Source of the DNA: a virus
Strand: one strand, 5' to 3'
DNA length: 14,762 nucleotides
UHGV virus genome: UHGV-0206032
Shown: positions 1,837 through 14,760 of the stretch, piece after piece
Layout: every line of letters begins with the position of its first letter
Position numbering within the stretch: position 1 is the stretch's first letter
The notes under the pieces: generated by a model
The model's database searches: none
The model's input: the letters and a program-made list of their open reading frames with translations, nothing else
What the model was told of the DNA's origin: nothing
Made by a program: the position numbers and the translations under genes

Positions 1837-2087
1837 CGATGCAGAATCACGCAGGCGCTCTGATAGCGGCTTACGGGTACATCCGTCACCTGTGGATTGG
1901 TTAAACAGCGTTAGACCTGCGTTAGATTCAGTTGTAGCGGTATTGATAACGTCTTCGCGAGATATCGTGCGGCCATTCTCTACATATAAAATGAATTCAC
2001 CGCGCACTCATTCTCGTCCTTCCCCAGGCAAAAACCTTGCGCGGTCCTGAAATTACTTTCATTTAAGTACCCGCCGACACTGGCGGC
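1837..2087 (+). promoter_or_regulatory. Intergenic region, candidate internal late promoter/operator (analogous in position to Mu P_I)
   Basis: Only sizeable non-coding gap in the window (251 bp) and AT-richer than its flanks. Contains direct repeat GCGTTAGA x2 (1908-1915, 1919-1926), inverted repeat ACCGCGCA / TGCGCGGT (1999-2006 / 2038-2045) and a GC hairpin CCGCC-N6-GGCGG (2071-2086) abutting the ATG of the next gene. In Mu a C-dependent late promoter sits upstream of gene I. Confidence 0.3.
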
Positions 2088-3062
2088 ATGAAAACTCAAC
2101 TCGCCGCTAACTCAGAAATTTACAGCTCCGTCGAGCTTTCCGATGGGAAGGCCCCCGACTGGGTTGAACTTATCCCCGCAGGTCCGACCGTCACCGGTCG
2201 TGATGGCCGTGCCTGGCTGTTCGATGACATGGCCACCGAACTGGTGCAGTCCAATTTCATCAGTCGAGCAATCGATCTGGTCATTGACCGGGAGCACGCC
2301 ACACAGCTCCGTGCATCCGTTGGCCAGGAAGCCCCAGCCGGTGCCTGGGTCAAACAATTCGAAATCCGCGATGGCGCTCTGTGGGGTCGCGTTGAATGGA
2401 CGCCTCGCGGTGCTGCTCAGGTCGAGGCCAAAGAGTATCGCTACCTATCCCCAGTGTTCGACTACGACCTCGACAACAAACGCATCGTGCGCATGGTCAG
2501 CGCGGCGCTGACCAATATCCCCAACCTCATCATGACCGCCCTCAACCAAGAAGCCCCGGAGAACACACCAGTGAAACTTTCAGCTGCGTTTTTGGCACTG
2601 CTCGGCCTGCCCGACACCGCCACTGAAGAACAGGCCATGTCGGCCGCAAGCCAACTCAAAACTACCGCCCAGGCCGCCAACACCGAACAGCCAAACTTGG
2701 CGCAGTTCGTCCCGCGTGCGGACTACGACGCCCTGGTCGGCCGTGCCACCAACGCCGAACAGGCGCTGGCCAGCCAGAAGAAGGCCGAGCACGACAAGGA
2801 AGTCGATGCAGTCATCATCTCGGCTACTAAGGCCGGAAAGATCACCCCATCCACCGTCGAGTACCACCGCGCCATGTGCCATGACGAAGCGGGCCTGGCG
2901 CGTTTCAAAGATTTTGTGACAGCGGCCCCTGTCGTGGCTGCGGCATCGGAACTGGGCAACAGGAACCCCGCGAATACCGGCACGGCTCTCAACGCCGAGG
3001 AACAAAAGGTCGCATCGTTGCTGGGTATGAGCGAAGCGGAATTCATCAAGGGCAAGGCGTAA
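2088..3062 (+). CDS. Prohead protease / scaffold protein (Mu I / gp32-like)
   Basis: 324-aa ORF. N-terminal half resembles Mu I-type protease (GKAPDWVELIPAGP...GRDGRAWLFDD); C-terminal half is Ala/Gln/Glu-rich and scaffold-like. Lies directly upstream of the major capsid gene, as in Mu. Confidence 0.8.
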   Translation: MKTQLAANSEIYSSVELSDGKAPDWVELIPAGPTVTGRDGRAWLFDDMATELVQSNFISRAIDLVIDREHATQLRASVGQEAPAGAWVKQFEIRDGALWGRVEWTPRGAAQVEAKEYRYLSPVFDYDLDNKRIVRMVSAALTNIPNLIMTALNQEAPENTPVKLSAAFLALLGLPDTATEEQAMSAASQLKTTAQAANTEQPNLAQFVPRADYDALVGRATNAEQALASQKKAEHDKEVDAVIISATKAGKITPSTVEYHRAMCHDEAGLARFKDFVTAAPVVAAASELGNRNPANTGTALNAEEQKVASLLGMSEAEFIKGKA

Positions 3063-3090
3063 CTCCCCCTCTATATAAAGGAAGAGATTC

Positions 3091-3984
3091 ATGATCATTA
3101 ACGCCAGTGTCTTGAACGCGCTGTTTGTTGCGTACAAGGCCGAGTTCCAAAACGCGCAGGCCGCGACACCGACCGACTGGAAGCGTATCGCCACGCCGGT
3201 CCCGTCCTCATCGGCCAGCAATACCTATGGCTGGCTGGGTCAGTTCCCGATGTTCCGTGAGTGGATCGGCGACCGTGTTCTCAAAAACATGGCAGCGCAT
3301 GGCTACTCCATCACCAACAAGAAGTTTGAGTCCTCGGTGGGTGTCCCACGTGATGCCATCGAAGACGACGAGATCGGCGTTTATAAGCCGCTGTTTGCCG
3401 AAATGGGGCGTGCTTCCAGTGCGCACCCGGACGAGCTGGTATTCGCGCTGCTCAAAGCGGGCTTGACCACCACCTGTTACGACGGCCAGTACTTCTTCGA
3501 TACTGATCATCCGGTCTACCCGTCGACCGATGCGTCTGGCACGGCGGTTTCCGTCAGCAACTATCAAGACGGTACAGGCCCGGCCTGGTATCTGCTCGAT
3601 GTCAGCCGCGCCCTGAAACCCATCATCTTTCAGAACCGTCGCAACTACGATCTGAAAGCGATGACCGCAATGGACGACGAAAGCGTATTCATGCGCGACG
3701 AATACCGCTATGGCGTGGATGCCCGGGTGAACGTCGGCTTCGGCTTCTGGCAGTTCGCTTACTGCTCAAAAGCCCCACTGACCGCCGAGAATTACGGCCT
3801 GGCTCGCGCAGCCATGAAGAACTTCCAGGCCGATGGCGGTCGCCCTTTGGGCATCAACCCCGGCCTCCTGGTTGTTCCATCCCAACTGGAAGGCGCTGCT
3901 CGCAAGATCCTGGTCAAGGATGCGGACAACGGCAACGAATGGGCAGGCACCGCCGAAGTACTTGCACCGGCCTGGCTGGGCTAA
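3091..3984 (+). CDS. Major capsid (head) protein, Mu T / gp34-like
   Basis: 297-aa ORF with strong RBS AGGAAGAG upstream. Size and position after the protease/scaffold gene match Mu T; sequence is consistent with the Mu-like major head subunit family from memory. Confidence 0.8.
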   Translation: MIINASVLNALFVAYKAEFQNAQAATPTDWKRIATPVPSSSASNTYGWLGQFPMFREWIGDRVLKNMAAHGYSITNKKFESSVGVPRDAIEDDEIGVYKPLFAEMGRASSAHPDELVFALLKAGLTTTCYDGQYFFDTDHPVYPSTDASGTAVSVSNYQDGTGPAWYLLDVSRALKPIIFQNRRNYDLKAMTAMDDESVFMRDEYRYGVDARVNVGFGFWQFAYCSKAPLTAENYGLARAAMKNFQADGGRPLGINPGLLVVPSQLEGAARKILVKDADNGNEWAGTAEVLAPAWLG

Positions 3985-3993
3985 GGGGGCGTC

Positions 3994-4548
3994 ATGACCA
4001 TTGTGATCACCTCGAAACATGACGGTTTTCGCCGCTGTGGCATCGCCCACTCCAGCGCGGCCGCGCGTTACCCGGATGACTTCTTTTCGGAAGCGCAGTT
4101 GCGGGCTCTGTCAAAAGAGCCTCAGTTGATCCTCGCTTATGAGGAGGATGAATTCGACCAGGTACAGGACCGCCGCGATGAAAACCTCCAGGAAGTCGAT
4201 GTATCGAAAGCGGCCGGCACCTCTGAAAGTACCTTGCAGGGCTTGGGTCAGACAGACCCTGCGGCAGTGGGTGACGCTGGGCTTAACCTCCAGCACGGAG
4301 CCAGCCATGGGCTTGATTTGCCGCAGGTAGGTGGTGTTGTTTCGGCAGATGAGGTCAAGCCTGAGCCAGACCTTGAGGCACTTTGGATCGCCGCGCTCCT
4401 GGAAGACGAACAACGGGAAGCGGCCAAACTGAACGCAGAGACCGAAACGCTTTGGGATGAAGCGATTGCGGAGGATGTACTGCGGGAGGTGGCCAAAGAA
4501 AAGGCGGCAAAGGCACCAGCAAAGCCTAAAAAGGCAGCGGGTAAATGA
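3994..4548 (+). CDS. Mu gp35 / FluMu-like small head-associated protein with acidic middle and Lys/Ala-rich tail
   Basis: 184-aa ORF with RBS AAGGGGG. N-terminal MTIVITSKHDGFRRCGIAH motif resembles the FluMu/Mu gp35 N-terminal domain; middle is strongly acidic; C-terminus is KEKAAKAPAKPKKAAGK. Stop overlaps the next start (ATGA). Confidence 0.5.
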   Translation: MTIVITSKHDGFRRCGIAHSSAAARYPDDFFSEAQLRALSKEPQLILAYEEDEFDQVQDRRDENLQEVDVSKAAGTSESTLQGLGQTDPAAVGDAGLNLQHGASHGLDLPQVGGVVSADEVKPEPDLEALWIAALLEDEQREAAKLNAETETLWDEAIAEDVLREVAKEKAAKAPAKPKKAAGK

Positions 4549-5036
4549 ACCTCTCACTGCCGTCCGCCAGCCAGCTCCTGGTCCGCTTTGGCCCTCGTGA
4601 TATCACCGAGGTTGCAGTCGCGGATACCGACAGGGTCATCGAGCCCGAGCTGCTGGTAGCCGCTGCCGCAGGCAAGCCATTGGATGACTGGTCTGCGGAA
4701 GATGTGGCCATCGCCGTCATGGCGTTGGCCAGGATCGCTGACGCGGTCACTCGGTCGCGTAGTGAGGTTTCGTTTTACCTGCGGTTCCGTGCGGCTGGCG
4801 AAGATGCTCCCGAATGGGTCACCGATGACCTGGCCGAGATCGCTCGCTACCACCTGTACGACGATGCCGGAAAGGAAGAGTCGACTGTGCGGGTGCTCTA
4901 CAAGGACGTGATAAAGCGCCTTGAAACTCTGGCCAAGGAAGACAAGGAGCGTGGAGCCGCCGAGGCAGGCCGGTCGGGCATGCAGCTCACCAGTCAGCCA
5001 CGACTAATGTCTCGCACCACCTTGAGGTCGCTCTGA
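4545..5036 (+). CDS. Head-tail joining / head completion protein (Mu gp36-like, DUF1320-type)
   Basis: 163-aa ORF, ATGA-coupled to the upstream gene and TGATG-coupled to the downstream gene. N-terminus (LLVRFGPRDITEVA) resembles the gp36-family start motif; position matches Mu J/gp36. Confidence 0.5.
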   Translation: MNLSLPSASQLLVRFGPRDITEVAVADTDRVIEPELLVAAAAGKPLDDWSAEDVAIAVMALARIADAVTRSRSEVSFYLRFRAAGEDAPEWVTDDLAEIARYHLYDDAGKEESTVRVLYKDVIKRLETLAKEDKERGAAEAGRSGMQLTSQPRLMSRTTLRSL

Positions 5037-5602
5037 TGTTGGGCGAGCTGGAAGACCTGATCGAGGCGCGCCTGAAGGAACTGACGGCCAAGATCCCGCG
5101 CCTGGCCGTGGAAAGCTACGGCGGTGAATTGAGCGACCCGGACCTGTTGCCTGGGTTGCTCAAACGTTGCCCGGCTGTACTGGTCATGGTGCCCAAGGTG
5201 ACGTTTCAGCGGCGTAGTCAAAATCGCTACACGGTGCCGATTACCTTCCGCCTGGTCATTGCCACACGTCACCCCCGTGGCGAACGGGAAACCCGGCGGG
5301 GTAGCGGCCCAAAGGACGTGGGTAGCTACGACCTATGGGAAGCCTGCATGCATCAACTGGTGGAATGGCAGCCTTGGGTAGATCGTGCAGCTATTCGTCC
5401 GACCGAGCTTTCCAACCTGGTCAACGGCAAGTTGGCCAGCGACCACCTCTCAGTCCTGGGGCAATCGTTCGTCATCGAACTGGATTGGGAAAAACCGAAA
5501 GAGGCTCTGCCTGACTTCCTGGGCGTCAGCTTGGAATACCACACCCCATCGGATAACCCCGAGCCGGTGGCCACCGACATCATCGAACTGAGGGACGTGT
5601 AA
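5036..5602 (+). CDS. Head-tail joining protein (Mu gp37-like, DUF1834-type)
   Basis: 188-aa ORF, start overlaps the previous stop (TGATG). Position and size match Mu gp37/K analogues. Confidence 0.5.
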   Translation: MLGELEDLIEARLKELTAKIPRLAVESYGGELSDPDLLPGLLKRCPAVLVMVPKVTFQRRSQNRYTVPITFRLVIATRHPRGERETRRGSGPKDVGSYDLWEACMHQLVEWQPWVDRAAIRPTELSNLVNGKLASDHLSVLGQSFVIELDWEKPKEALPDFLGVSLEYHTPSDNPEPVATDIIELRDV

Positions 5603-5793
5603 TGCACGTTATCGCCGCACCTGGTCATCGGGTGCCCATGGATGAAGATCCGTACAAGTACATCGAAGAGGCCGAGTCCGTCGACGTGCCAGATACCTCC
5701 TACTACCGACGCCGCTTGGCGGCTGGTGAACTGCTCGCCGCGAAGAAACCACGCGGCAGTGCCAAACAACTCGCACAGGAATCCGCTGAATGA
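5602..5793 (+). CDS. Small tail-associated protein (DUF2635-like, Mu gp38 position)
   Basis: 63-aa ORF, TAATG-coupled upstream and ATGA-coupled to the sheath gene. Motifs APGHRVPMDEDP and DTSYYRRRL resemble the small conserved protein found just upstream of sheath genes. Confidence 0.45.
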   Translation: MHVIAAPGHRVPMDEDPYKYIEEAESVDVPDTSYYRRRLAAGELLAAKKPRGSAKQLAQESAE

Positions 5794-6890
5794 GCATTTC
5801 CTTTGACACCATCCCGGCGTCGATTCGCAAGCCGGGCGTTTACATTGAGTTCAACACCAGCCTGGCGGTACGGACGCTGCCCACCAACAAGCAGAGTGTC
5901 TGCCTGATCGTGCCCCTGGGCGTCGATGCTACTGTTGCGGCCAACGTGCCTACGCCGTTCTACAGCGCAGCCGAGGCCAAAGCCTTGTTCGGCGGGACAG
6001 TGGCCGAGGAAATGGCGGACGCGTTTATCACCGCCTATCGGTACGCCTCCATCTCGGCCGTAGGTGTGGTGGTCGAGGGCGAAACAGAACCCGACATCAA
6101 GGCTGCTTTGGACTCGACCGCCATGGGTGGTTTCACCATCCTGGTGCCTGCCTGGTTTAGCCAGGTCGCACTCACTGCATTGCGCACGCACATCCAGACC
6201 TACACCAGTTCGATGGAGCAACAGGGAATCATCGGTGTGGCGGCGCTGACCAGCACCTTGTCGGCCGCGACCACGTTGGCCACGTCGCTGAACTCCGGCG
6301 CAATCAGCTTGGCAGTCCTGCCGGGAACTGCATCGACTGCGCGCCAGGTAGCCGCCGCGTATGCCGCGATGATCGCCTCGGAAGAAGATCCAGCGCGGCC
6401 GCTGAATACCCTGGTGTTGACTGGTATCAAGGTTCCGCCGGTCACTCAGCGTCTCGGTCGTACAGAGCAGGAAACGGCGCTGGCCAATGGTGTCACGCCG
6501 CTGGAGGTTGCGGCCGGTGATGTCATCCAGATCGTCCGTGCAGTGACCACCTACACCAAGTCTGCTGCTGGTGCCACGGACGTGTCGCTGCTGGATTTGA
6601 CCACTATCCGCACTCTGTATTACGTGCGTGTGGCCATTCGTGACCGCATCCGGCTGCGCTTCCCACGCTCGAAACTCTCCAGCAAGACGCCTGCGGCTGT
6701 TCGTGGCGAGATCCTGGACGTACTCAAGAAGCTGGAAGAGTTGGAAATCGTCGAAGAGGTGGACGCCAACGCCGATGGTCTGGTGGTTGAGCGTTCACTC
6801 CAGGACGTAAACCGCCTCAATGCAACCATTCCTGTCGATGTAGTCAACGGCCTGCATGTGTTCGCCGGTCGCATTGACCTGCTCCTGTAA
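5790..6890 (+). CDS. Tail sheath protein (Mu L-like)
   Basis: 366-aa ORF. N-terminus (TIPASIRKPGVYIEFNTSLA) matches the characteristic sheath N-terminal pattern; followed by a ~120-aa tube gene, as expected for contractile tails. Confidence 0.7.
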   Translation: MSISFDTIPASIRKPGVYIEFNTSLAVRTLPTNKQSVCLIVPLGVDATVAANVPTPFYSAAEAKALFGGTVAEEMADAFITAYRYASISAVGVVVEGETEPDIKAALDSTAMGGFTILVPAWFSQVALTALRTHIQTYTSSMEQQGIIGVAALTSTLSAATTLATSLNSGAISLAVLPGTASTARQVAAAYAAMIASEEDPARPLNTLVLTGIKVPPVTQRLGRTEQETALANGVTPLEVAAGDVIQIVRAVTTYTKSAAGATDVSLLDLTTIRTLYYVRVAIRDRIRLRFPRSKLSSKTPAAVRGEILDVLKKLEELEIVEEVDANADGLVVERSLQDVNRLNATIPVDVVNGLHVFAGRIDLLL

Positions 6891-6903
6891 GAGGTGATTT
6901 TAG

Positions 6904-7275
6904 ATGGCTGATAACTACGTAGGGCAGATCGTCCTGGAGATCAACGGCACCGATTATGAGGTGACGAGCGTTGAGCCGAGCCTTAAGACCGGGCGTAAGG
7001 TCGTCAAGACGATGAACCGCACAGGCCGTCCCACCGGCACGGCAAAAGGTATTGAAGAGCACGAGCTGAAAATCTCGGTGCCAATTCCGAAGACTGGCGA
7101 GCCAGACTGGCGGGCACTGATGGACGCCAAGCTGACCATCTATCCGCAGGACGGTGGCAGTAAGCGCCAGACCTGGACCGGGTGTTCTTTGATGGAGATG
7201 GGCAGTAAGTACCAGGTAGAGGGTGAAGCCACCCGCGACCTGACCATCGCCGCCCTCAACTACTACCCGGAGTGA
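6904..7275 (+). CDS. Tail tube protein (Mu M-like)
   Basis: 123-aa ORF with RBS AGAGGTGA. Size and position (sheath -> tube -> chaperone -> tape measure) match tail tube proteins. Confidence 0.65.
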   Translation: MADNYVGQIVLEINGTDYEVTSVEPSLKTGRKVVKTMNRTGRPTGTAKGIEEHELKISVPIPKTGEPDWRALMDAKLTIYPQDGGSKRQTWTGCSLMEMGSKYQVEGEATRDLTIAALNYYPE

Positions 7276-7279
7276 TGCA

Positions 7280-7666
7280 ATGACCGAGCAATCAAGCAAG
7301 CGCTGGGAAGGACTGAGCATCACCCGCGAACTCAAAATGGGTGTCTATTACTCCGGCCTGCGCCACAAGACCTTCACTTTGCGTGTTCCTGTTGCGGGCG
7401 ACCTGGTCGCCGCGCAGGAGCTGCACCCAGGCGCACCATTTCAACTGATCACCCTGGAGGTTTATCGCCGTCAGTTGTTGTCCCTGGGCGAGATTCCCGC
7501 CGACGCGTTGACCACTGAATTGCTCCTGGGCGAACTCACCGAGAGCGACCTGGCCATCATTGCCGATGCCGATGCCGAGCTGGAAAAAAAGCTCGCGCCG
7601 CCGAGCGCGGCAACGTCGACTGGCGACGAATCGAACACGCCTTCGTCCGCCACGGCTACCGGCTAG
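7280..7666 (+). CDS. Tail assembly chaperone (short, in-frame product)
   Basis: 128-aa ORF between tube and tape measure genes. Contains an in-frame A_AAA_AAG slippery heptamer at 7585-7591. Confidence 0.6.
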   Translation: MTEQSSKRWEGLSITRELKMGVYYSGLRHKTFTLRVPVAGDLVAAQELHPGAPFQLITLEVYRRQLLSLGEIPADALTTELLLGELTESDLAIIADADAELEKKLAPPSAATSTGDESNTPSSATATG

Positions 7667-7788
7667 AAGAGCTTCGCCAGATGACCAGGGCCGAGATCGA
7701 TGCACGTATTGATCTGATCATCGGCAAGGTCAAAGGCACCCGCTATGTCAGTCAGCGCCAGCGCAAGGCGTTGCCTAAACCCAAATGA
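7280..7788 (+). CDS. Tail assembly chaperone, predicted -1 frameshift fusion product (slip at 7585-7591)
   Basis: After a -1 slip on A_AAA_AAG the -1 frame stays open for 65 codons (ARAAERGNVDWRRIEHAFVRHGYRLEELRQMTRAEIDARIDLIIGKVKGTRYVSQRQRKALPKPK) to TGA at 7786-7788, ending just before the tape measure start. Mirrors the conserved G/GT-type frameshift of long-tailed phages. Confidence 0.5.
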
Positions 7789-7843
7789 CAGGCTCGACAC
7801 CGGGCCTTTCCTGTCCCTGTAAGTCCGTTTCCGGGAGTTATCC

Positions 7844-10261
7844 ATGTCCGATCTGCGCGTCGCGCTTCGTTTCCAGGCCCATGCGGGTAACAGTCGGCGC
7901 GAGATCGAGCAGATCAACCGTGACCTGCGCAAGGCTGGCAAGGAGGGCGCCAAGGCTCTGGCCGATGAAAGCTGGAAAGCGTCTTCTGCCATCACCAAGG
8001 TCGGCCAGGTCGGGGCCAACAGCTATAAAGTGATCCGTGCAGCAATGCGCGAAACCGCTACGGCTGGTTCCGGCACGCGCATCGAGGTCAGCAAGACAAC
8101 TGCTGAACTCAAGGATATGGCCAATGCAGCTCGCAAGGCTGCACGAGATGCGAAAACTGAGTTGCAGAACACCGACCGGCAAGGCGTGCAGCCCTTGCGC
8201 CAGAGCGTTGATAAGACAGAGGCATCCTTCCGGCGCATGGCACAGAACAGCGGTCGCAGCCTGCGAACTTTGAAAACCATCGCTATGGGTGTGCGTCAGG
8301 AGTTTGATCGCATCAAGGGGCTGGGCGGGAGCATGCAAGGGAAACTGGCTGGGTTAGGTGTGGGAGTCGGTGTTGTGTCGGGCGTGACATCAAGTGCAAA
8401 GCTGGACCGCCAGCTTATACGTACTCAACAAACTGCGGGCATGTCAGTTGAACAGCGTGAAGAATGGCGTGGTGAACAGTGGCGCTTAGCAAAAACCTAC
8501 GGCATTGAACGTGAGCAAGTTCAAACAGGGTTCGATACCTTGATCGCAAGTGGTATGTCCTACGATAAAGCGAAAGCAAGTTCCGGAGCTATCGCTCAAG
8601 CAACAGCAGTTACGGGGGCTGACTCCGGGATTCTGGCTAAAGCGCTTATAACTGGTGCGAGCGCTTTTGATATTGACCTCTCTAAGCCCAACGCTGCTGT
8701 AGACATCTTGCAAAAAATGATCGTTGCTGGCCGTCTGGGTAACGCTGAACTTGAGAATCTATCAAGCATTTTCCCTAAAGTGGGGCAGGACGCCAAGTCG
8801 GCGGGCATGTCCATGGCTCAGTCTCTTTCGTTTGTTGAAACGTTATCTCTTATTGAACTTGAACCTGATCGTCTAGGAACTCTGGCGCAATCGACTTTGC
8901 GTGCATTCAACAATGGTAATTACCGCAAGAGCGTTACGAAAAATACAGGCGTCGATTTTTTCAACAAGGATAAGTCTGTAAGGAATACTCAGGATGTATT
9001 TCTTGACCTACAGCACAAATACAAATCACTTAAGAATGACAAAGATCGCGCTCGATTCATGGATGTGGTGTTTGGAAAGATGGACCAGGACACGCAAAAG
9101 GGAGTTAAGGCGTTCTTGACTGGTGATCGACTGGAGAACTTTGCTAAAAGTACCGGGGACATTAATAACGCCAAAGGCGTTATTGAAAAGGATCTGGCCG
9201 ATAACATGAGCAGTTCGACTGCTGTCGGTTCTCGAATGAAGGCCAGCCTTGGCGAAGCCATCGACCGTATGGCGAAGCCATTGAACAAAGGCTTTGCAGA
9301 CCTCGGCAGTTACCTGCTCGATGATCTGAATTTGTCAGGCGAGCAAATGCTGGTCGGTGGTGCCGCACTGGGAGTCGGTGGCTACTACGCCGGACGCGGT
9401 GCCAAAGCAGGCGCAGGCGCTTTGCTCAACAAGTTTATGGGTGGACCGGAGACCTTGAAAAACATCGCCGTGGGCAAGGTGTTGGAAGAAGCCACGGGCG
9501 TTACATCTGTTTTCGTCACCAACTGGCCTGCTGGTGCGCCCCTCGGTATTGGCAGCGGTCCCGACCTGCCCAATGGTCCCAGTTCCGGTAAAGGCAACGG
9601 GAAGCCAGGTGGTTTTATCACCCCGTGGCTAGCACCCTTGGCTTTAGCTGCGACGGCCACGCAGATCGGCGGGGCAAGTGCGACGGCTACAGACGAAGGT
9701 CGCCTCGATGCTGCCCAGCGCAGCAAGCTGCTTAACGATGATCAGCGAACGTACCAGGCGTCCTTCTACCGCAACCGCATGGCCCTGGCCGACAGGAATC
9801 CCAGCCAGTCATCTGATTGGCTGTCCTCAGAGGCCCAACGCCTGGCGCACCATGAAACCGGCCTGACAGCTGCGGGCCTGCCCATCGATGGCGCAAACAC
9901 CTGGGCCCAAGGCATCGCCGGTCGTGCCCTGGCTGCGGGTGCCAACACCTTCACAGCACAACAACGCCTGCGGGACATGATGGCGCAATCCGGTACCAGC
10001 CAGCCTTCGACCTGGTTAGCCGACCAGGCGCAACGCCTGGCTAACCCGTTGTCGGGCGGCAGCATGGCTGGCTTTCCTGGAATTGCCGGCAACGGCTCCG
10101 CACCAGGTGCAATCGGTGCCAATCCTGCCGCACAAGCCGCCGAGGAACGCCTCCGCTCCTTGCTCACCCAGCCGCTGATCATTGAAGTGCGTACTGACTC
10201 ACGGATGATCCAGGCCGAGGTTGAGCGTCGAACTGATATTCAGATGAGGCGCGGCGGATGA
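7844..10261 (+). CDS. Tail tape measure protein
   Basis: 805-aa ORF with RBS GGGAG, downstream of the chaperone. Has Gly-rich/hydrophobic stretches, a conserved-looking central core and C-terminal repeats. Stop overlaps the next start (ATGA). Confidence 0.85.
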   Translation: MSDLRVALRFQAHAGNSRREIEQINRDLRKAGKEGAKALADESWKASSAITKVGQVGANSYKVIRAAMRETATAGSGTRIEVSKTTAELKDMANAARKAARDAKTELQNTDRQGVQPLRQSVDKTEASFRRMAQNSGRSLRTLKTIAMGVRQEFDRIKGLGGSMQGKLAGLGVGVGVVSGVTSSAKLDRQLIRTQQTAGMSVEQREEWRGEQWRLAKTYGIEREQVQTGFDTLIASGMSYDKAKASSGAIAQATAVTGADSGILAKALITGASAFDIDLSKPNAAVDILQKMIVAGRLGNAELENLSSIFPKVGQDAKSAGMSMAQSLSFVETLSLIELEPDRLGTLAQSTLRAFNNGNYRKSVTKNTGVDFFNKDKSVRNTQDVFLDLQHKYKSLKNDKDRARFMDVVFGKMDQDTQKGVKAFLTGDRLENFAKSTGDINNAKGVIEKDLADNMSSSTAVGSRMKASLGEAIDRMAKPLNKGFADLGSYLLDDLNLSGEQMLVGGAALGVGGYYAGRGAKAGAGALLNKFMGGPETLKNIAVGKVLEEATGVTSVFVTNWPAGAPLGIGSGPDLPNGPSSGKGNGKPGGFITPWLAPLALAATATQIGGASATATDEGRLDAAQRSKLLNDDQRTYQASFYRNRMALADRNPSQSSDWLSSEAQRLAHHETGLTAAGLPIDGANTWAQGIAGRALAAGANTFTAQQRLRDMMAQSGTSQPSTWLADQAQRLANPLSGGSMAGFPGIAGNGSAPGAIGANPAAQAAEERLRSLLTQPLIIEVRTDSRMIQAEVERRTDIQMRRGG

Positions 10262-11601
10262 GCTGGGCAGAGAACCTGCTGGACGCTTCCTTCCGTGGCG
10301 TCCCGCTCCAAGTAGAAGGCGAAAGCCTACAATGGCAACGCGCCCTGTCTGAGCATGGGACGCCGTTCAAGGATGGCGACCGGGTCAAAGACCTGGGCCG
10401 TGGTGCGCGCCGTATCCCCATGCAAGTAGTGGTGTTCGGCGTCAATTACGAGATCGAACTCCAGAACATCCTCCGTACCTTGAATACACCAGGTACGGGC
10501 GAACTGATCCACCCGATCTACGGCAGCATGAATGTCGTCAGCAGCACCGGCGAGGTAAAGCACAGCGCCGAGCGGCCAGACTATGCCGAGATCAGCATAG
10601 TGTTTGTTGAGGACACGCCCGACGCTCCATTCTTCGACCGGCAGTTTGAATTTGTCGATGTCGGCGTATTGGGGTTGGAGGATGAATACACCTGGCAGGA
10701 TGGCATCTTCGATCTGTTCGGCCGTATTGATTCCCTGGTCGGCGAGATTCAATCGTGGATCGGCGGGGGCTGGGTAGGACTGATCGAAAAGGCCCTGGGC
10801 TTGCCTGGCATTGGCCTGCGCTTGCAACAGCTGCGCTCGCAGATCATGGGTGTGGTGTCCGGCGTCGGGTCGATGGCCAAGCGGCCATCAGGGGCGTTTG
10901 ATCCCCTGGTCGACCTGATGCGCACACCCTCGGAGATCCGAGGCGCCATCCAGGGCAGCACGCCCAGTTCGTCAACGACGCTACTAGCTCGCACTGGCGT
11001 ACCCGTTAGCTTGCCTGGTAATGCCAGCCTGGTGGCGGATGCTGCGCGTGCGGGTACTGGCTTTCTGATAGGTGCCCGACAAGGTGTGGCACCCACCGTC
11101 GGCCTGCTGATCGACGGCGTACCGACCAATGCGGGCAGCGCCCTGGTGCTGCTGCCCGACGGAATGCCGGATGATCCGGTTACCGCTAACGGTTTCGCCC
11201 TGGTCGTCCTGGTCATCACTGAACTGGCACTGGCTCACGCCCAGGCGGTAGCCACCGTCATCGAGGACGAAGCCGATACGCCGACGTTGAGTCCATTAGA
11301 GCTGGAAGGCCTGGTTAATTTGGTGCGCTCGCTGGTGCAGTCGTCCATCCTTCTACAACGTCACCTTTTCGACGTAGAGACCGCACTGCCGATCATTGAT
11401 GCATTGCGCAACGTCGCCGCGTTGATCCAGGCCCGCGCCCGTCAAGTCATTTTGCAAAGTCCTCCGATGCTTGAGCGGGTGGTTGAGACGCCTGCAAGCC
11501 TACATTTGCTGGCTCACCGCTGGTATGGCGGGCCGAGTGGAAGGAAAAGGTCGAAGCGGCCGCTGCTCGCGTCGACAAGATCGCCAAAAAAGGCGGCATG
11601 A
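10258..11601 (+). CDS. DNA circulation protein (Mu N / gp43-like)
   Basis: 447-aa ORF. N-terminus (ASFRGVPLQVEG, LGRGARRIP, GTGELIHPIYGS) matches the DNA circulation protein N-terminal domain as recalled for Mu N. The 3' end is uncertain: its last ~40 codons overlap other frames (see findings). Confidence 0.75.
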   Translation: MSWAENLLDASFRGVPLQVEGESLQWQRALSEHGTPFKDGDRVKDLGRGARRIPMQVVVFGVNYEIELQNILRTLNTPGTGELIHPIYGSMNVVSSTGEVKHSAERPDYAEISIVFVEDTPDAPFFDRQFEFVDVGVLGLEDEYTWQDGIFDLFGRIDSLVGEIQSWIGGGWVGLIEKALGLPGIGLRLQQLRSQIMGVVSGVGSMAKRPSGAFDPLVDLMRTPSEIRGAIQGSTPSSSTTLLARTGVPVSLPGNASLVADAARAGTGFLIGARQGVAPTVGLLIDGVPTNAGSALVLLPDGMPDDPVTANGFALVVLVITELALAHAQAVATVIEDEADTPTLSPLELEGLVNLVRSLVQSSILLQRHLFDVETALPIIDALRNVAALIQARARQVILQSPPMLERVVETPASLHLLAHRWYGGPSGRKRSKRPLLASTRSPKKAA

Positions 11602-11650
11602 GTCAGACAACAGCGGACGAAATCCGGCGCGAGATCCTGGGGATGGCATC

Positions 11651-13204
11651 GTGAGTCTGCCCCTCGTCCTAGACAGCACCGCCACTTTGCTTGCCCCAGC
11701 GGTCTTACTCGACTATCAGAAAGAGTGGATCGGTATACGCGCCCCACTCAAGGTTGGCGAGAAATCCCGGCGTATCGGTCTCACATGGGCTGAGGCGGCA
11801 GACAACGTCCTGGTAGCCGCGTCCGAAAAATCGGCGGGCGGTCAAACTGTCTATTACCTCGGCTACAACCAAGACATGACCGTGGAGTACATCCAGGCAT
11901 GCGCCATGTGGGCGCGGGCCTATAACTACGCGGCCGAGCAAATAGAAGAAGGCATCTGGCCCGACAGCGACCCCGACAAACACATCAAGACCTACACCAT
12001 CGCGTTTCCCAGCGGCCACCGCATCGTCGCGCTGACCAGTCGCCCGTCCAACCTGCGTGGGCGTCAGGGCGTTGTCGTGATCGACGAAGCCGCGTTCCAT
12101 GCGGACTTGGCCGAGCTGCTCAAAGCTGCAATGGCTCTGTTGATCTGGGGCGGTGAAGTCCATGTGATCAGCACCCACGACGGTACGGAGAACCCCTTCA
12201 ACGACCTGGTCAACGAAATCCGGTCAGGCAAGCGCAATGGTGAAGTGTTCCGCTGCACGTTCGGTGAAGCCGTTGCCGATGGTCTGTACAAGCGTGTCTG
12301 CCTGCGTAAAGGCATTGGGTACAGGCTTGAGGATCAAATCGCCTGGGTGAATGACGTATACGACTTCTACGGCGATGCAGCCGACGAAGAATTAGACTGC
12401 GTGCCATCCCAGGGTGGCGGTGCCTTCCTCAGCATGGCCCTGGTTGAGCAGCGCAGTAACCGTGACGTGCCGGTACTGCGCCTGGCATACCCGCAGGGTT
12501 ACGAAACCATCGCCGAACACTTGCGCCTGGCCGAGTCCCTGGAGTGGTGCGAAGAGCATTTGCTCCCGCTGCTTTCGGCCATTCCCCTGGACGTTCAGAG
12601 CTTCTATGGCATGGACTTCGGGCGCTCCGGAGACCTCTCGGTCTTCTGGCCATTGCTCAAAGAGCAGAATCTGCGCAAACGCACGCCCTTTGTGGTCGAG
12701 CTGCGTAACGTCCCGTTCAAGCAACAACTCCAGATTAAGTTTTACATCATTCGTCGCTTACCCAACTTCCTCAAAGGCGCCGACGACGCCAGGGGCAACG
12801 GCTCGCAACTGTCGGAAGACACTGCCGTCGAGTTCGGCTTCAACCGCATCGAGCGTGTGATGCTCACCGAGGGCTGGTATCGCGACAACATGCCGCCGTT
12901 CAAGGCCGCCCTGGAAGATGACACCTTCTACGACATCCCGGCCGACAAGGATGTGGTTAGCGACGTGCGTGCCTTTCGGATGGTCAAGGGCGTGGCTCGC
13001 ATCCCCGAAAAGCGCACCAACGAAAAGGGCGAAAAGTCCGGACCGAAGCGCCATGGCGACGCCGGTATCGCGGCCGTACTGGCCGACTACGCCTCTCGTC
13101 AAGATGTCGAAATCTTCGAATATCACCGCGTCCAGCCAGCCGTCCAGCATGATCGCGAGATCAAGCACGGGGCTGGGTGGCGCTCTCAGAAAGGCATTTG
13201 GTAA
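11651..13204 (+). CDS. Terminase large subunit (Mu gp28-like)
   Basis: Frame of track ORF 11471..13204, but start proposed at GTG 11651 (RBS GGGGA 7 nt upstream); the upstream in-frame part is Arg-rich junk overlapping gene N. Motifs: LLDYQKEW near N-terminus, Walker-B-like VVVIDEAAF, ISTHDG, nuclease-domain-like GMDFGRSGDLSV, C-terminal RHGDAGIAAVLA. Confidence 0.75.
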   Translation: MSLPLVLDSTATLLAPAVLLDYQKEWIGIRAPLKVGEKSRRIGLTWAEAADNVLVAASEKSAGGQTVYYLGYNQDMTVEYIQACAMWARAYNYAAEQIEEGIWPDSDPDKHIKTYTIAFPSGHRIVALTSRPSNLRGRQGVVVIDEAAFHADLAELLKAAMALLIWGGEVHVISTHDGTENPFNDLVNEIRSGKRNGEVFRCTFGEAVADGLYKRVCLRKGIGYRLEDQIAWVNDVYDFYGDAADEELDCVPSQGGGAFLSMALVEQRSNRDVPVLRLAYPQGYETIAEHLRLAESLEWCEEHLLPLLSAIPLDVQSFYGMDFGRSGDLSVFWPLLKEQNLRKRTPFVVELRNVPFKQQLQIKFYIIRRLPNFLKGADDARGNGSQLSEDTAVEFGFNRIERVMLTEGWYRDNMPPFKAALEDDTFYDIPADKDVVSDVRAFRMVKGVARIPEKRTNEKGEKSGPKRHGDAGIAAVLADYASRQDVEIFEYHRVQPAVQHDREIKHGAGWRSQKGIW

Positions 13205-14760
13205 TGGCTGACTCCAAAATCGTCGACCAGTACGGTCGCCCGATCCAGTACGACAAACTCACGGAAGAGCTGGCAGTTGCCCGCACCACCGGCATTCGCC
13301 AGATTTGGCACCAGTCGGTGGCCAACGGCCTGACACCTCAGCGTCTGGCGAGTATTTTGCGGGCCGCTGCCGAGGGATCAGCTAATGACTACCTGACCCT
13401 TGCTGAGGAAATGGAAGAACGGGATCTGCATTATGCCTCGGTGTTAGGCACACGTAAGCTGGCAGTGGCCGGGTTGTCGGTTCGGATCGAGGCAGCCAGC
13501 GACGATCCCGAGGACGTACGCCGGGCCGATCAGCTCAAGGAGCTAGTTGACTCTCCCGAGTTTGGCGAGCTTCAGGCGGACCTGACTGACGCCATGGGCA
13601 AAGGCTATGCCGTCTCCGAAATCATGTGGGACCGTAGTGGTAAGACCTGGAATCCTGAGCGTTTTGAACCCCGCGATCAGCGATTCTTCCAATTTGACCG
13701 TGAAACCGGCCGGGAGCTGCGCCTGCTCGATGAGGCTGATCCGATCAATGGTGTTGCCCTGGCTCCGTACAAATTCATTGTTCATCTGCCGCGTATCCGC
13801 TCTGGTCTTCCGATCCGGGGCGGCCTGGCGCGCCTCGCGGCTGTTGGCTACATGTGCAAGGCCTGGACTTGGAAGGACTGGATGGGCTTTGCTGACATCT
13901 TCGGCATGCCGATGCGCGTCGGCCGGTACGGCGCAGGTGCGAGCAAGGAAGACATCAGCACTCTGATGTCTGCGGTGGCCAACCTGGGCAGCGATGCAGC
14001 AGCGGTGATCCCGGACAGCATGCGCATTGAGTTTACCCAGGCCGCCAATGTGGGCGGTGCCGGGGACTTCTTCAAAGGGCTGGCCGAATGGTGGGATAAA
14101 CAAGTCAGTAAGGCCGTAGTCGGTCAGACCATGTCCACCGACGACGGCTCCAGCCAAGCCCAGGCAACGATTCATAACGAAGTTCGTATAGACCTACTGC
14201 AAGCCGATGCCAAGGCCGAATCCAACACCTTGAACCGCTACTTTGTGCGGCCCTGGTGCGATCTGAACTTTGCACCTGGTCGTCCGTATCCGCGGCTGAT
14301 CATTGATGTGCCAAAGCCAGAAAACACCAAGATCCTGATCGAGGCACTCAAGACACTCGTTCCGTTAGGGTTGAAGGTCGAGCAGTCCGTAATCCGCGAC
14401 AAGCTCAATATCCCGGCTCCGGCCGAGGGTGCCGAACTGCTGGGCATCCCGCCACCCGTTGCCACTCCTGCGCTGGCCCAGGCTACCAACAGCGAGCAAA
14501 AGCCAGCCAAGCCGGTGGTAATGCCGGACATCGTGGATAACCAGGTGCGGACGCTTGAGCGGACTGTGGGGGTCTATATGGATGACATGGTCGAGCAGAT
14601 CAAGGAACTACTCGACACCGTCAGCAGCCTGGAAGAGTTCCGGGATCGGCTGATCGAAGCCTATCCAGCGATGACCACCAGCCAATTGGCCGATGCGATT
14701 GCTGATGGCCTGACGGCCGCCAGCATGGCTGGCCGCGATGACATTCTGAGAGGCCTGTAA
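13204..14760 (+). CDS. Portal protein (Mu gp29-like, DUF935-type)
   Basis: Start proposed at ATG 13204, which overlaps the TerL stop (TAATG), rather than the track's 13177. 518 aa, directly downstream of TerL. N-terminal region (IWHQSVANGLTPQRLASILRAAAEG...LAEEMEERDLHY) resembles the Mu gp29 portal family from memory. Confidence 0.75.
   Translation: MADSKIVDQYGRPIQYDKLTEELAVARTTGIRQIWHQSVANGLTPQRLASILRAAAEGSANDYLTLAEEMEERDLHYASVLGTRKLAVAGLSVRIEAASDDPEDVRRADQLKELVDSPEFGELQADLTDAMGKGYAVSEIMWDRSGKTWNPERFEPRDQRFFQFDRETGRELRLLDEADPINGVALAPYKFIVHLPRIRSGLPIRGGLARLAAVGYMCKAWTWKDWMGFADIFGMPMRVGRYGAGASKEDISTLMSAVANLGSDAAAVIPDSMRIEFTQAANVGGAGDFFKGLAEWWDKQVSKAVVGQTMSTDDGSSQAQATIHNEVRIDLLQADAKAESNTLNRYFVRPWCDLNFAPGRPYPRLIIDVPKPENTKILIEALKTLVPLGLKVEQSVIRDKLNIPAPAEGAELLGIPPPVATPALAQATNSEQKPAKPVVMPDIVDNQVRTLERTVGVYMDDMVEQIKELLDTVSSLEEFRDRLIEAYPAMTTSQLADAIADGLTAASMAGRDDILRGL

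What the first reader, a model, noticed from the sequence alone, without database searches (positions are those of the whole stretch)
8390..9340. Low-GC mosaic block inside the tape measure gene
Counted in 60-nt blocks, GC falls from ~62-70% in the flanks to ~35-57% across roughly 8400-9330, with a trough of ~35-40% around 8820-9060. Codon choice shifts too (AAA, TTA, ATA, AAT). The block encodes the conserved central core of the tape measure protein, while both ends of the gene keep host-like composition. This looks like recombinational replacement from a lower-GC donor phage.
Basis: seen in the sequence. Interest (0 to 1): 0.6.

Follow-up and report, generated by a model that had tools for sequence, protein, structure and literature searches.

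The report
Swapped AT-rich tape measure core
The low-GC stretch is real and is a recombination-swapped central module of a Pseudomonas Mu-like prophage tape measure gene, but rival versions of the module are just as AT-rich, so the dip belongs to the module and is not evidence of a lower-GC donor; this is ordinary phage mosaicism, seen here at high resolution.

Summary
Positions 8390-9340 have GC 0.476, against a window median of 0.594. This is the lowest 951-bp stretch in the window, and GC3 is 0.47 against an expected 0.69 (z = -8.6).

The block lies in an 805-aa tape measure gene (7844-10261) of a Mu-like Pseudomonas myophage and covers its PF10145 domain.

The mosaic claim is supported. 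The window is 96-100% identical to L016/L018 on both sides but only about 62% identical across the block. Inside the block it resembles L003/L019 (86-88%). Breakpoints fall at about 8368-8374 and about 9247-9340 (Fisher p = 7e-62). The same core allele occurs at 80-91% amino-acid identity in phages whose tape measure termini are only 41-71% identical.

The "lower-GC donor" claim is not supported:
- About 45% of the dip is amino-acid composition, shared by all ~60 homologues examined.
- The synonymous part is present in every core allele class in this phage lineage, including the allele displaced in the window's nearest relatives.
- The synonymous part shows no amelioration.
- All close relatives of the core come from Pseudomonas contexts of 57-63% GC.

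Amino-acid constraint alone also fails. The same allele has GC3 of 0.73-0.79 in other backbones.

In passing: an ISL3 element sits in the GC trough in a 99.98%-identical relative, and the window is circularly permuted with a chimeric junction at about 11530.

The parts
7844..10261 (+). Tape measure protein gene (805 aa), Mu gp42 position. It lies between the gp41-like chaperone (7280-7666) and the gp43 DNA_circ_N gene (10258-).
   Evidence: ORF list, translation, PF10145 hit and Pfam hits of the neighbours
8370..9250 (+). Recombination-defined core cassette (allele A). Inside it the window matches L019/L003-type sequences. Outside it the window matches L016/L018-type sequences. The right edge is graded up to about 9340.
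   Evidence: Informative-site analysis gives breakpoints at 8368-8374 and 9247-9248. Inside, 9% of sites match L016; outside, 83% do (Fisher p = 7e-62). Sliding identities.
8390..9340 (+). Low-GC block as flagged: GC 0.476, GC3 0.47, GC12 0.48.
8486..9076 (+). PF10145 PhageMin_Tail domain (aa 215-411)
   Evidence: E = 1.4e-20
8321..8404 (+). Gly-rich hydrophobic segment (aa 160-187, GLGGSMQGKLAGLGVGVGVVSGV). It contains the left breakpoint.
   Evidence: Kyte-Doolittle 19-aa windows above 1.0 start at aa 160-169; breakpoint
9233..9433 (+). Right junction zone. It comprises the segment conserved across all alleles (aa 464-500, RMKA.L.EAIDRM..PLNKGFAD.GSYLLDDLNLSGE) and the second Gly-rich hydrophobic segment (aa 501-530).
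   Evidence: Invariant columns of alignment A1, graded identity recovery, hydropathy and sequence
9644..9743 (+). Second, smaller L019-like mosaic patch in the C-terminal half
   Evidence: 24 of 26 informative sites match L019 rather than L016; identity profile
8982..8989 (+). GGAATACT, the 8-bp target site in the GC trough. A 99.98%-identical relative carries an ISL3-family insertion sequence here.
   Evidence: L048 alignment overlaps at 8982-8989, and the IS is flanked by GGAATACT on both sides

Best explanation
The block is the central PhageMin_Tail module of the tape measure protein of a Mu-like Pseudomonas (fluorescens-group) myophage. It behaves as an exchangeable cassette.

At least three or four divergent allele classes occupy exactly the same gapless ~880-bp slot:
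- A, the window's allele.
- A', about 85% amino-acid identity to A.
- B and C, about 56-62% identity to A.

These alleles are shuffled among backbones by homologous recombination. The crossovers fall in the conserved segments that bracket the slot: a Gly-rich hydrophobic segment on the left, and the invariant RMKA...LLDDLNLSGE segment plus a second Gly-rich segment on the right. The window is an L016/L018-like backbone carrying an A-type core.

The GC dip belongs to the slot and was not created by this particular swap. About 45% of it comes from the Lys/Asp/Asn/Phe-rich, Ala/Gly/Arg/Pro-poor composition of the domain, which is universal. About 55% comes from A/T-ending synonymous codons, which all allele classes resident in this phage lineage share.

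Shown: the mosaic structure, the breakpoints, the decomposition of the dip, the stationarity of the low GC3, and its absence in other lineages that carry the same allele.

Inferred:
- The low GC3 reflects synonymous sites lying closer to the AT-biased mutational equilibrium. Within-allele dS is 1.5-1.9 times higher than in the flanks. This could mean weaker selection or biased gene conversion towards GC, or a deeper coalescence than in the frequently homogenised flanks. The same pattern is seen in the other AT-rich flexible segments of these phages.
- Allele swapping is favoured because internal tape measure regions set the inner-membrane entry route and the sensitivity to injection-stage defences.
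For: Mosaicism:
- Window vs L016 is 96-100% nt identical over 5400-8000 and 93-98% over 9800-10200, but about 62% over 8400-9200. Window vs L003/L014/L019/L037 is 86-88% in the block.
- The alignment is gapless, and identity to L001/L002 collapses to 45-65% only between about 8360 and 9320.
- Breakpoints are at 8368-8374 and about 9247, p = 7e-62.
- Regions are incongruent. N-terminal identity to L016/L017 is 98-99% aa while core identity is 58-59%. L038 and L027 are 56-59% in the N-terminus but 89-91% in the core. L009 is 68% / 80% / 41% for N-terminus, core and C-terminus.

Composition:
- Core GC12 is 0.47-0.56 in all ~60 homologues, against 0.55-0.64 in the flanks.
- Expected core GC from amino acids plus phage codon usage is 0.549, against 0.476 observed and 0.60-0.625 in the flanks.
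- Core GC3 is 0.43-0.56 in alleles A, A' and B on this backbone.
- The A allele has GC3 of 0.72-0.79 on other backbones (L038, L027, L009, L029, L030, L039, L052, L054, L057, L058).

No amelioration:
- Third-position W->S vs S->W counts are 121/145 (allele A) and 327/355 (allele B). The implied equilibrium is 0.43-0.49. Drift towards 0.68 is rejected at p = 4e-17 (allele A) and 1e-25 (allele B).
- GC3 is 0.46-0.48 in all seven A-type copies despite a core dS of 0.7-1.3 between the pairs compared (win-L003, L019, L005).

Other points:
- Within-allele dS in core vs flanks: 0.73 vs 0.39/0.40 for win-L003; 0.36 vs 0.25 (N-flank; the C-flank is 1.13) for L016-L017; 1.20 vs 0.79 (N-flank; C-flank 1.65) for L016-L001. 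So the core clearly exceeds both flanks only in win-L003. Core dN/dS is 0.02-0.03.
- Other AT-rich patches (GC 0.48-0.51) in relative L001 are insertions or variable segments.
- All protein hits of at least 80% identity are Pseudomonas.
- Functional context: internal TMP regions determine ManYZ dependence and SNIPE sensitivity, including a naturally divergent aa 300-400 segment in one phage (PMC13190303).
Against: - The boundaries of the GC dip coincide closely with the recombination breakpoints. A foreign-origin model predicts exactly this.
- Core GC3 is decoupled from flank GC3 in both directions across the family. L022, L026 and L061 have cores more GC-rich than their flanks, which suggests that cassettes carry the composition of earlier backgrounds.
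- One lower-GC lineage exists: L060, with locus GC 0.55, flank GC3 0.49 and core GC3 0.42.
- Parsimony polarisation is biased at these divergences. The flank controls themselves show an S->W excess, so 'stationary' is a relative statement.
- The cause of the low synonymous GC is inferred, not shown.
- No functional data exist for this tape measure protein. The defence and entry-route rationale comes from siphoviruses of E. coli.
Confidence: 0.7

Rival explanations
1. The core was replaced by recombination with a phage from a lower-GC host, and its AT-rich codon usage is the donor's signature, not yet ameliorated.
For: - GC3 anomaly of z = -8.6, confined to the recombinant segment.
- Cassette GC3 is decoupled from flank GC3 in both directions among relatives.
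- A lower-GC lineage with a related (allele C-like) core exists: L060, locus GC 0.55.
Against: - The allele displaced in the window's nearest backbones is equally AT-rich: L016/L017/L018 have GC3 0.48-0.50.
- All three allele classes on this backbone show the dip.
- No A-type core was found in any low-GC context among about 100 loci and proteins. All hits of at least 80% identity are Pseudomonas at 57-67% GC.
- There is no W->S excess over about one substitution per third-position site of tree length.
- About 45% of the dip is amino-acid composition.
Confidence: 0.15
2. Amino-acid constraint only. The dip simply reflects the residues the PhageMin_Tail domain needs, with no synonymous anomaly of interest.
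For: - Core GC12 is lower than flank GC12 in every homologue examined, 0.47-0.56 vs 0.55-0.64.
- The GC2 trough of 0.20-0.23 at 8924-9103 corresponds to a Lys/Asn/Asp/Phe-rich stretch.
Against: - Amino-acid composition predicts GC 0.549, not 0.476, and GC3 is 0.47 against an expected 0.69.
- The same allele at 89-91% amino-acid identity has GC3 0.73-0.79 in L038, L027, L052 and L054.
Confidence: 0.05
3. Selectively maintained AT-richness. The synonymous A/T bias is kept because the DNA or mRNA of this stretch has a function, for example as a binding site for the Pseudomonas H-NS-like silencers MvaT/MvaU over the late operon of the prophage, or as a slow-translation zone that aids chaperone loading of the tape measure.
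For: - Low GC3 is stationary across three allele classes and large synonymous divergence.
- The 0.35-0.48 GC trough is the most AT-rich DNA in the module.
Against: - Within-allele dS is higher, not lower, than in the flanks, so there is no sign of synonymous constraint.
- Some phages of the same backbone or with the same allele lack the dip: L022, L066 and the L038 group.
- No promoter-like site, one terminator-like hit (below the shuffle expectation) and no credible Rfam signal were found across the tape measure gene region scanned (7600-10400), which contains the block.
- MvaT binding and translation speed cannot be tested with these tools.
Confidence: 0.1

Closest known systems
Modular mosaicism of temperate tailed phages (Hendrix/Hatfull model), including sub-gene mosaic joints in tail genes. 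Cited from established knowledge, not from a paper read here.
   Same: Segments with sharp identity transitions are shared among otherwise divergent phages. The whole 3.6-11.5 kb region of the window is a patchwork relative to its relatives. The exchange occurs within one host genus.
   Different: The exchanged unit is an internal domain of one gene, with both joints inside conserved coding sequence and no length change. Several deep allele classes persist at one slot.
Internal tape measure regions that set the injection route and defence sensitivity: lambda gpH with ManYZ and the SNIPE nuclease; the divergent aa 300-400 segment of the PhiR68.2 TMP (PMC13190303). Also HK97 TMP with PtsG and gp15, cited in that paper's reference list.
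   Same: A divergent internal TMP segment in an otherwise closely related TMP clade. The TMP is a protein that contacts the inner membrane during DNA entry. The window's core is bracketed by Gly-rich hydrophobic segments.
   Different: Those are E. coli siphoviruses, whereas this is a contractile-tailed Mu-like Pseudomonas phage. No phenotype is known for any allele here, so the link is an inference.
Compositionally atypical horizontally acquired DNA and the amelioration model (Lawrence & Ochman), plus the general AT-richness of mobile or flexible DNA relative to the host (Rocha & Danchin). Both cited from memory.
   Same: A local drop in GC and GC3 with atypical codon usage, coinciding with a recombinant segment. 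Other flexible segments of related phages are similarly AT-rich.
   Different: There is no amelioration signal. The resident alternative alleles share the anomaly. No low-GC source was found.
Phage Mu gp42 tape measure and the Mu tail module (gp39 sheath, gp40 tube, gp41 chaperone, gp43 DNA circularisation protein)
   Same: Gene order and Pfam families match: Phage_sheath_1, Gp41_Mu (weak), PhageMin_Tail, DNA_circ_N, Portal_Mu, Mu-like gpT, Mu-like_Pro, Phage_Mu_F.
   Different: There is no detectable sequence similarity to any cultured phage TMP in INPHARED at E <= 1e-5. Only four unannotated metagenomic contigs match.

Membership tests
Phage tail tape measure protein (PF10145 PhageMin_Tail family) | Significant match to the PF10145 profile above the gathering threshold | tested here: met
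   74.5 bits against a cut-off of 33.2, E = 1.4e-20, aa 215-411 covering profile positions 7-201 of 201
Phage tail tape measure protein (PF10145 PhageMin_Tail family) | Position in the tail module: downstream of sheath, tube and chaperone; upstream of baseplate genes | tested here: met
   Sheath 5790-6890, tube-position ORF 6904-7275, gp41-like 7280-7666, TMP 7844-10261, DNA_circ_N 10258-. Relatives continue with gp44-48 baseplate genes.
Phage tail tape measure protein (PF10145 PhageMin_Tail family) | Determines tail length and is ejected to form the DNA conduit | not testable with these tools
   Needs virion and genetic experiments
Recombinant (mosaic) segment | Abrupt change of nearest relative along the sequence, with statistically supported breakpoints | tested here: met
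   Breakpoints at 8368-8374 and about 9247. Inside, 9% of informative sites match L016; outside, 83% do. Fisher p = 7e-62.
Recombinant (mosaic) segment | Phylogenetic incongruence between the segment and its flanks across many taxa | tested here: met
   Region-wise identity matrices for 38 full-length genes. The same allele is found on backbones 41-71% identical in the termini.
Recently acquired foreign DNA from a lower-GC donor (compositional island) | Synonymous composition atypical of the surrounding genome | tested here: met
   GC3 0.47 against an expected 0.69, z = -8.6
Recently acquired foreign DNA from a lower-GC donor (compositional island) | The anomaly is specific to the acquired allele and absent from the allele it replaced | tested here: not met
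   Allele B at the same slot in L016, L017, L018, L001 and L002 has GC3 0.48-0.56 and GC 0.49-0.51
Recently acquired foreign DNA from a lower-GC donor (compositional island) | Closest relatives of the segment reside in lower-GC genomes | tested here: not met
   All hits of at least 80% identity are in Pseudomonas or in 57-67% GC contigs. The only lower-GC lineage, L060, is 62% identical to the window's core.
Recently acquired foreign DNA from a lower-GC donor (compositional island) | Ongoing amelioration (an excess of W->S substitutions at synonymous sites) | tested here: not met
   W->S 121 vs S->W 145 in allele A and 327 vs 355 in allele B. This is a parsimony estimate, so a model-based test is still desirable.

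The most novel reading that the evidence does not exclude
The tape measure core is a true specificity cassette. Deep allele classes are kept by balancing or diversifying selection because each uses a different inner-membrane entry partner or evades a different injection-stage defence. Its AT-rich synonymous composition is itself maintained, for example as an MvaT/MvaU silencing patch over the prophage late operon or as a translational pause. As a side effect it makes the gene a hotspot for ISL3 insertion, which inactivates the prophage.
Probability: 0.1. Interest if true: 0.6.

Novelty: new member of a known kind. Interest (0 to 1): 0.3.

Why it matters
Practical lesson: a GC3 dip that coincides with a recombination block is not enough to infer a low-GC donor. 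Here the competing alleles at the same slot share the dip, and about half of it is amino-acid composition.

Biological value: the locus gives a well-resolved example of domain-level cassette exchange inside a tape measure gene of an uncultured group of Mu-like Pseudomonas prophages. Both crossovers lie in conserved segments (Gly-rich hydrophobic on the left; an invariant segment followed by a second Gly-rich one on the right). Recent work shows that internal tape measure regions govern the entry route and sensitivity to injection-stage defences (PMC13190303). The A, A' and B/C alleles are therefore ready-made material for testing whether that holds in contractile-tailed Pseudomonas phages.

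The persistence of low GC3 across alleles, together with raised dS, is a small but clean data point for the question of what keeps GC3 high in Pseudomonas and its phages.

Tried and rejected
- Embedded element (intein, homing endonuclease or moron): rejected. The alignment with all relatives is gapless across the block, and the block encodes the PF10145 domain.
- Embedded RNA, promoter or terminator: the Rfam E-value scan of 7600-10400 gave only a chance snoRNA hit at 7688-7739. There were no promoter-like sites, and one terminator-like site against 3.3 expected.
- Antisense ORF 8989-9288 (99 aa, TTG start): treated as a by-product of the ORF listing and not pursued.
- Diversity-generating retroelement or hypermutation: considered and dropped. 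The divergent tract is about 880 bp, within-allele dN/dS is 0.02-0.03, and the allele classes are discrete.
- Search for a low-GC donor: the core protein search, the genome, viral and metagenome contig scans and three contig look-ups found none. Only L060 (GC 0.55) is somewhat lower, and it carries a different allele.
- Cultured-phage relatives: tblastn against 50,697 phage records found only four unannotated faecal-metagenome contigs.
- Literature search for a described GC dip in tape measure genes: nothing specific was found.
- In one search one reference gene was entered out of frame (11700 instead of 11702). It contributes about 11% of the reference codons, and the frame was corrected. The z-scores of about -8 are not sensitive to it.
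- dS between allele classes is saturated, so dN/dS across alleles (a test for diversifying selection) could not be estimated.
Full report
**What the window is.** All large ORFs are on the + strand and give Mu-type Pfam hits:

| Coordinates | Gene |
|---|---|
| 1-1263 | Mu F-like protein with a C-terminal PBECR2 nuclease domain |
| 2088-3062 | Protease I |
| 3091-3984 | Major head protein gpT |
| 5790-6890 | Sheath |
| 6904-7275 | ORF in the tube position |
| 7280-7666 | gp41-like chaperone |
| 7844-10261 | 805-aa protein; residues 215-411 match PF10145 PhageMin_Tail (E = 1.4e-20) |
| 10258- | gp43 DNA_circ_N protein |
| 11471-13204 | Weak terminase-like ORF |
| 13177-14760 | Mu portal |

Prophage relatives in the species-representative genomes are in Pseudomonas azerbaijanoccidentalis, P. 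salomonii, Pseudomonas sp. Fl4BN1, P. pseudonitroreducens and P. huaxiensis, with a distant one in Janthinobacterium. The element is therefore a Mu-like contractile-tailed prophage of Pseudomonas. No cultured phage in INPHARED has a detectable relative of this tape measure. Only four unannotated contigs from a Mexican faecal virome match it.

**The observation.**
- GC drops from about 0.58-0.61 to 0.40-0.50 between about 8400 and 9300, with a minimum of 0.405 at 8901-9100.
- The lowest 951-bp window of the whole sequence starts at 8385. Its GC is 0.474, against a median of 0.594 and a lowest value of 0.543 outside this gene.
- The drop affects all codon positions. GC3 is 0.35-0.55 across 8384-9160, against 0.59-0.75 for the other genes. 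GC2 reaches 0.20-0.23 at 8924-9103.
- Resampling synonymous codons from the usage of the other genes predicts a core GC of 0.549 +/- 0.009. The observed value is 0.476 (z = -8.2). GC3 is 0.47 against an expected 0.69 (z = -8.6).
- With flanks at 0.60-0.625, roughly 45% of the dip is amino-acid composition. The core has more Asp, Lys, Phe, Ser and Asn, and less Ala, Gly, Arg and Pro. Roughly 55% is synonymous codon choice.
- The synonymous shift is mostly C->T and G->A at third positions (T3 0.32 vs 0.17; A3 0.21 vs 0.13). The main codons are GCT, GTT, ACT, CTT, ATT, CGT, GAA and AAT.

**The block is a recombination mosaic.** A gapless alignment with three related contigs shows 85-93% identity to L001/L002 in the flanks. 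Identity collapses to 45-65% only between about 8360 and 9320, while L003 stays at 81-98% throughout (86-93% across the block).

With 38 full-length genes from GTDB genomes and IMG/VR, the three parts of the protein give incompatible relationships:
- L016/L017 are 98-99% identical to the window in the N-terminal 170 residues but 58-59% in the core.
- L038 and L027 are 56-59% in the N-terminus and 47-48% in the C-terminus, but 89-91% in the core.
- L009 is 68%, 80% and 41% for N-terminus, core and C-terminus.

The core falls into discrete classes:
- A: window, L003, L014, L019, L020, L037, L005.
- A' (about 85% to A): L011-13, L015, L023.
- B (56-59% to A): L001, L002, L006, L008, L016-18, L025, L028, L031, L033, L034, L036, L043.
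- A B-related class C: L022, L032.

Over the wider locus, the window's nearest backbones are L016 and L018. They are 96-100% identical over 5400-8000 and 93-98% (L016) or 84-86% (L018) over 9800-10200, yet about 62% in the block. In the block the nearest sequences are L003, L014, L019 and L037 at 86-88%.

I took L016 and L019 as parental types. Informative sites then switch from 83% L016-like outside the block to 9% inside it. Breakpoints are at 8368-8374 and 9247-9248 (Fisher p = 7e-62). The right edge is graded up to about 9340. A second small L019-like patch lies at 9644-9743.

The left joint lies inside a Gly-rich hydrophobic segment (aa 160-187). The right joint lies at the start of a stretch that is invariant across all alleles (aa 464-500). 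A second Gly-rich hydrophobic segment follows. These conserved brackets are plausible substrates for homologous exchange. That last point is an inference.

**Is the low GC a donor signature?** Several results say no.
1. The rival allele in the same slot is equally AT-rich. Core GC is 0.49-0.51 and GC3 is 0.48-0.56 in L001, L002, L016, L017 and L018, and L001/L002 reproduce the window's GC profile block by block.
2. Of the 26 relatives with a window-type backbone, all but L022 have core GC3 of 0.43-0.56, whatever the allele. Metagenome loci repeat this pattern: L051, L053, L055, L056, L062-65, L068, L070 and L079.
3. Core GC12 is 0.47-0.56 in every homologue examined, including distant ones in 64-70% GC contigs. 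That component is a property of the domain.
4. Polarised third-position substitutions show no amelioration.
   - W->S/S->W counts are 121/145 within allele A and 327/355 within allele B. The implied equilibria are 0.43-0.49.
   - Drift towards the flank level would predict about 70% W->S, which is rejected at p = 4e-17 (allele A) and 1e-25 (allele B).
   - All seven A copies have GC3 of 0.46-0.48 despite a core dS of 0.7-1.3 between the pairs compared.
5. No donor was found.
   - All proteins at least 80% identical to the core are from Pseudomonas.
   - All DNA loci with A-type cores lie in 57-67% GC DNA.
   - The only lower-GC lineage is L060 (locus GC 0.55, TMP-flank GC3 0.49, core GC3 0.42). 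It carries a C-like core only 62% identical to the window's.

**Pure amino-acid constraint is excluded as well.** The A allele at 89-91% amino-acid identity has GC3 of 0.73-0.79 in L038, L027, L052 and L054. At 80% identity it has GC3 of 0.72-0.79 in L009, L029, L030, L039, L057 and L058. Some phages have cores more GC-rich than their flanks (L022, L026, L061). Core GC3 is therefore evolutionarily labile in both directions. I cannot exclude that the AT-rich state of the A, A' and B cores ultimately traces to lower-GC ancestors. Nothing in the present data requires it, and the swap that created the window exchanged one AT-rich core for another.

**What keeps GC3 low is inferred, not shown.**
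- Within alleles the core has higher dS than the N-terminal flank: 0.73 vs 0.39 for win-L003, 0.36 vs 0.25 for L016-L017, and 1.20 vs 0.79 for L016-L001. Against the C-terminal flank this holds only for win-L003 (0.40); in the two L016 pairs the C-flank dS is higher than the core (1.13 and 1.65). dN/dS in the core is very low, 0.02-0.03.
- The flanks themselves show an S->W excess, with an implied equilibrium of about 0.53.
- Other AT-rich patches (0.48-0.51) in relative L001 are insertions or variable segments.

One reading covers all of this. Synonymous sites of the cassette sit near an AT-biased mutational equilibrium. Either selection or biased conversion towards GC is weaker there, or the alleles are older than the frequently homogenised flanks.

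The higher dS argues against strong selection on the synonymous sites themselves. That lowers, but does not eliminate, functional ideas such as MvaT/MvaU silencing or translational pausing. No RNA family or promoter was found in the scanned region containing the block, and the single terminator-like hit was below the shuffle expectation.

**Why swap the core?** In E. coli siphoviruses, internal tape measure regions determine dependence on the inner-membrane ManYZ complex and sensitivity to the SNIPE nuclease. One phage in that study carries a naturally divergent aa 300-400 segment in an otherwise conserved TMP clade (PMC13190303). By analogy, the deep allele classes here may differ in entry partner or defence sensitivity. 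This is an inference from a different phage type.

**Side findings.**
- A Logan contig (L048) is 99.98% identical to window 2844-11530. It carries an ISL3-family element of about 1.4 kb inserted at 8982-8989, with an 8-bp duplication GGAATACT, exactly in the GC trough.
- The same truncated 389-aa product occurs on at least 10 contigs from NCBI, JGI and Logan. This explains the many 'partial' tape measure hits.
- The window is circularly permuted. Its end joins its start in a real prophage (L045).
- Every relative loses homology at 11530. There the gp43 coding sequence is fused, through the microhomology ATGGC, to DNA upstream of the terminase gene. That junction is absent from IMG/VR, and L048 reads straight on through gp43 at this point.

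**Verdict.** This is a well-resolved instance of a known phenomenon, sub-gene modular exchange in temperate phages. It has a modestly interesting twist: several deep allele classes at one slot share a stationary AT-rich synonymous composition.

Noticed in passing
window 8982-8989; L048 6147-7565; L050 2559-3860: A contig 99.98% identical to the window (L048) has an ISL3-family insertion sequence (433-aa DDE_Tnp_ISL3 transposase) inserted in the GC trough of the tape measure core, with an 8-bp target duplication GGAATACT. The resulting truncated 389-aa product (P0005) is on at least 10 contigs from NCBI, JGI and Logan. It probably accounts for the many partial TMP hits that end at contig breaks.
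   Followed up: partly
window 11528-11531 and window ends (14762 -> 1): The window is circularly permuted relative to all relatives. The portal stop, 2 nt and the ATG of the F gene are contiguous in prophage L045. At about 11530 the gp43 coding sequence is fused, via the microhomology ATGGC, to DNA upstream of the terminase gene. More than 25 relatives lose homology exactly there, the junction is not in IMG/VR, and L048 continues through gp43. This is probably a circularised, chimeric or deleted contig. The ORF at 11471-13204 is therefore chimeric at its 5' end.
   Followed up: partly
window 1837-2087: A low-GC (about 0.465) intergenic gap lies between the ORF at 1273-1836 and the protease I gene. 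Relative L001 has a low-GC insertion of about 1.1 kb (GC about 0.48) at this same spot (L001 10016-11136). From memory, this is the position of the strong gyrase site in phage Mu (between G and I). Not tested.
   Followed up: no
L001 7707-8099: L001 has an AT-rich segment of about 390 bp (GC about 0.49) between the portal and F genes, where the window has only a 2-nt spacer. This is another AT-rich flexible insertion in this phage group.
   Followed up: no
window 1-1263: The Mu F-like head protein carries a C-terminal PBECR2 (Barnase/EndoU/ColicinE5-D/RelE-like) nuclease domain (aa 287-417, E = 7.9e-26) fused to the Phage_Mu_F domain.
   Followed up: no
window 9500-10100 (TMP aa about 550-750): The C-terminal half of the tape measure is also mosaic and variable in length. 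Relatives fall into forms of about 739-752, 780, 799-811 and 859-886 aa, with an indel around aa 691-750. L016 drops to 63-69% identity at aa 561-620 while being 97-99% identical on either side.
   Followed up: partly
whole window vs INPHARED: The only phage-database relatives are four unannotated 'Bacteriophage sp.' contigs from a Mexican human faecal virome, although the prophage relatives are all in environmental Pseudomonas. No cultured phage has a detectable homologue of this tape measure at E <= 1e-5.
   Followed up: no
L046 (Logan ERR15948566 contig), 4267-7126: A related contig has apparently shortened tail genes: sheath 245 aa, tape measure 537 aa (matching window aa 269-805) and gp43 171 aa. 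This suggests a decayed or deleted prophage.
   Followed up: no
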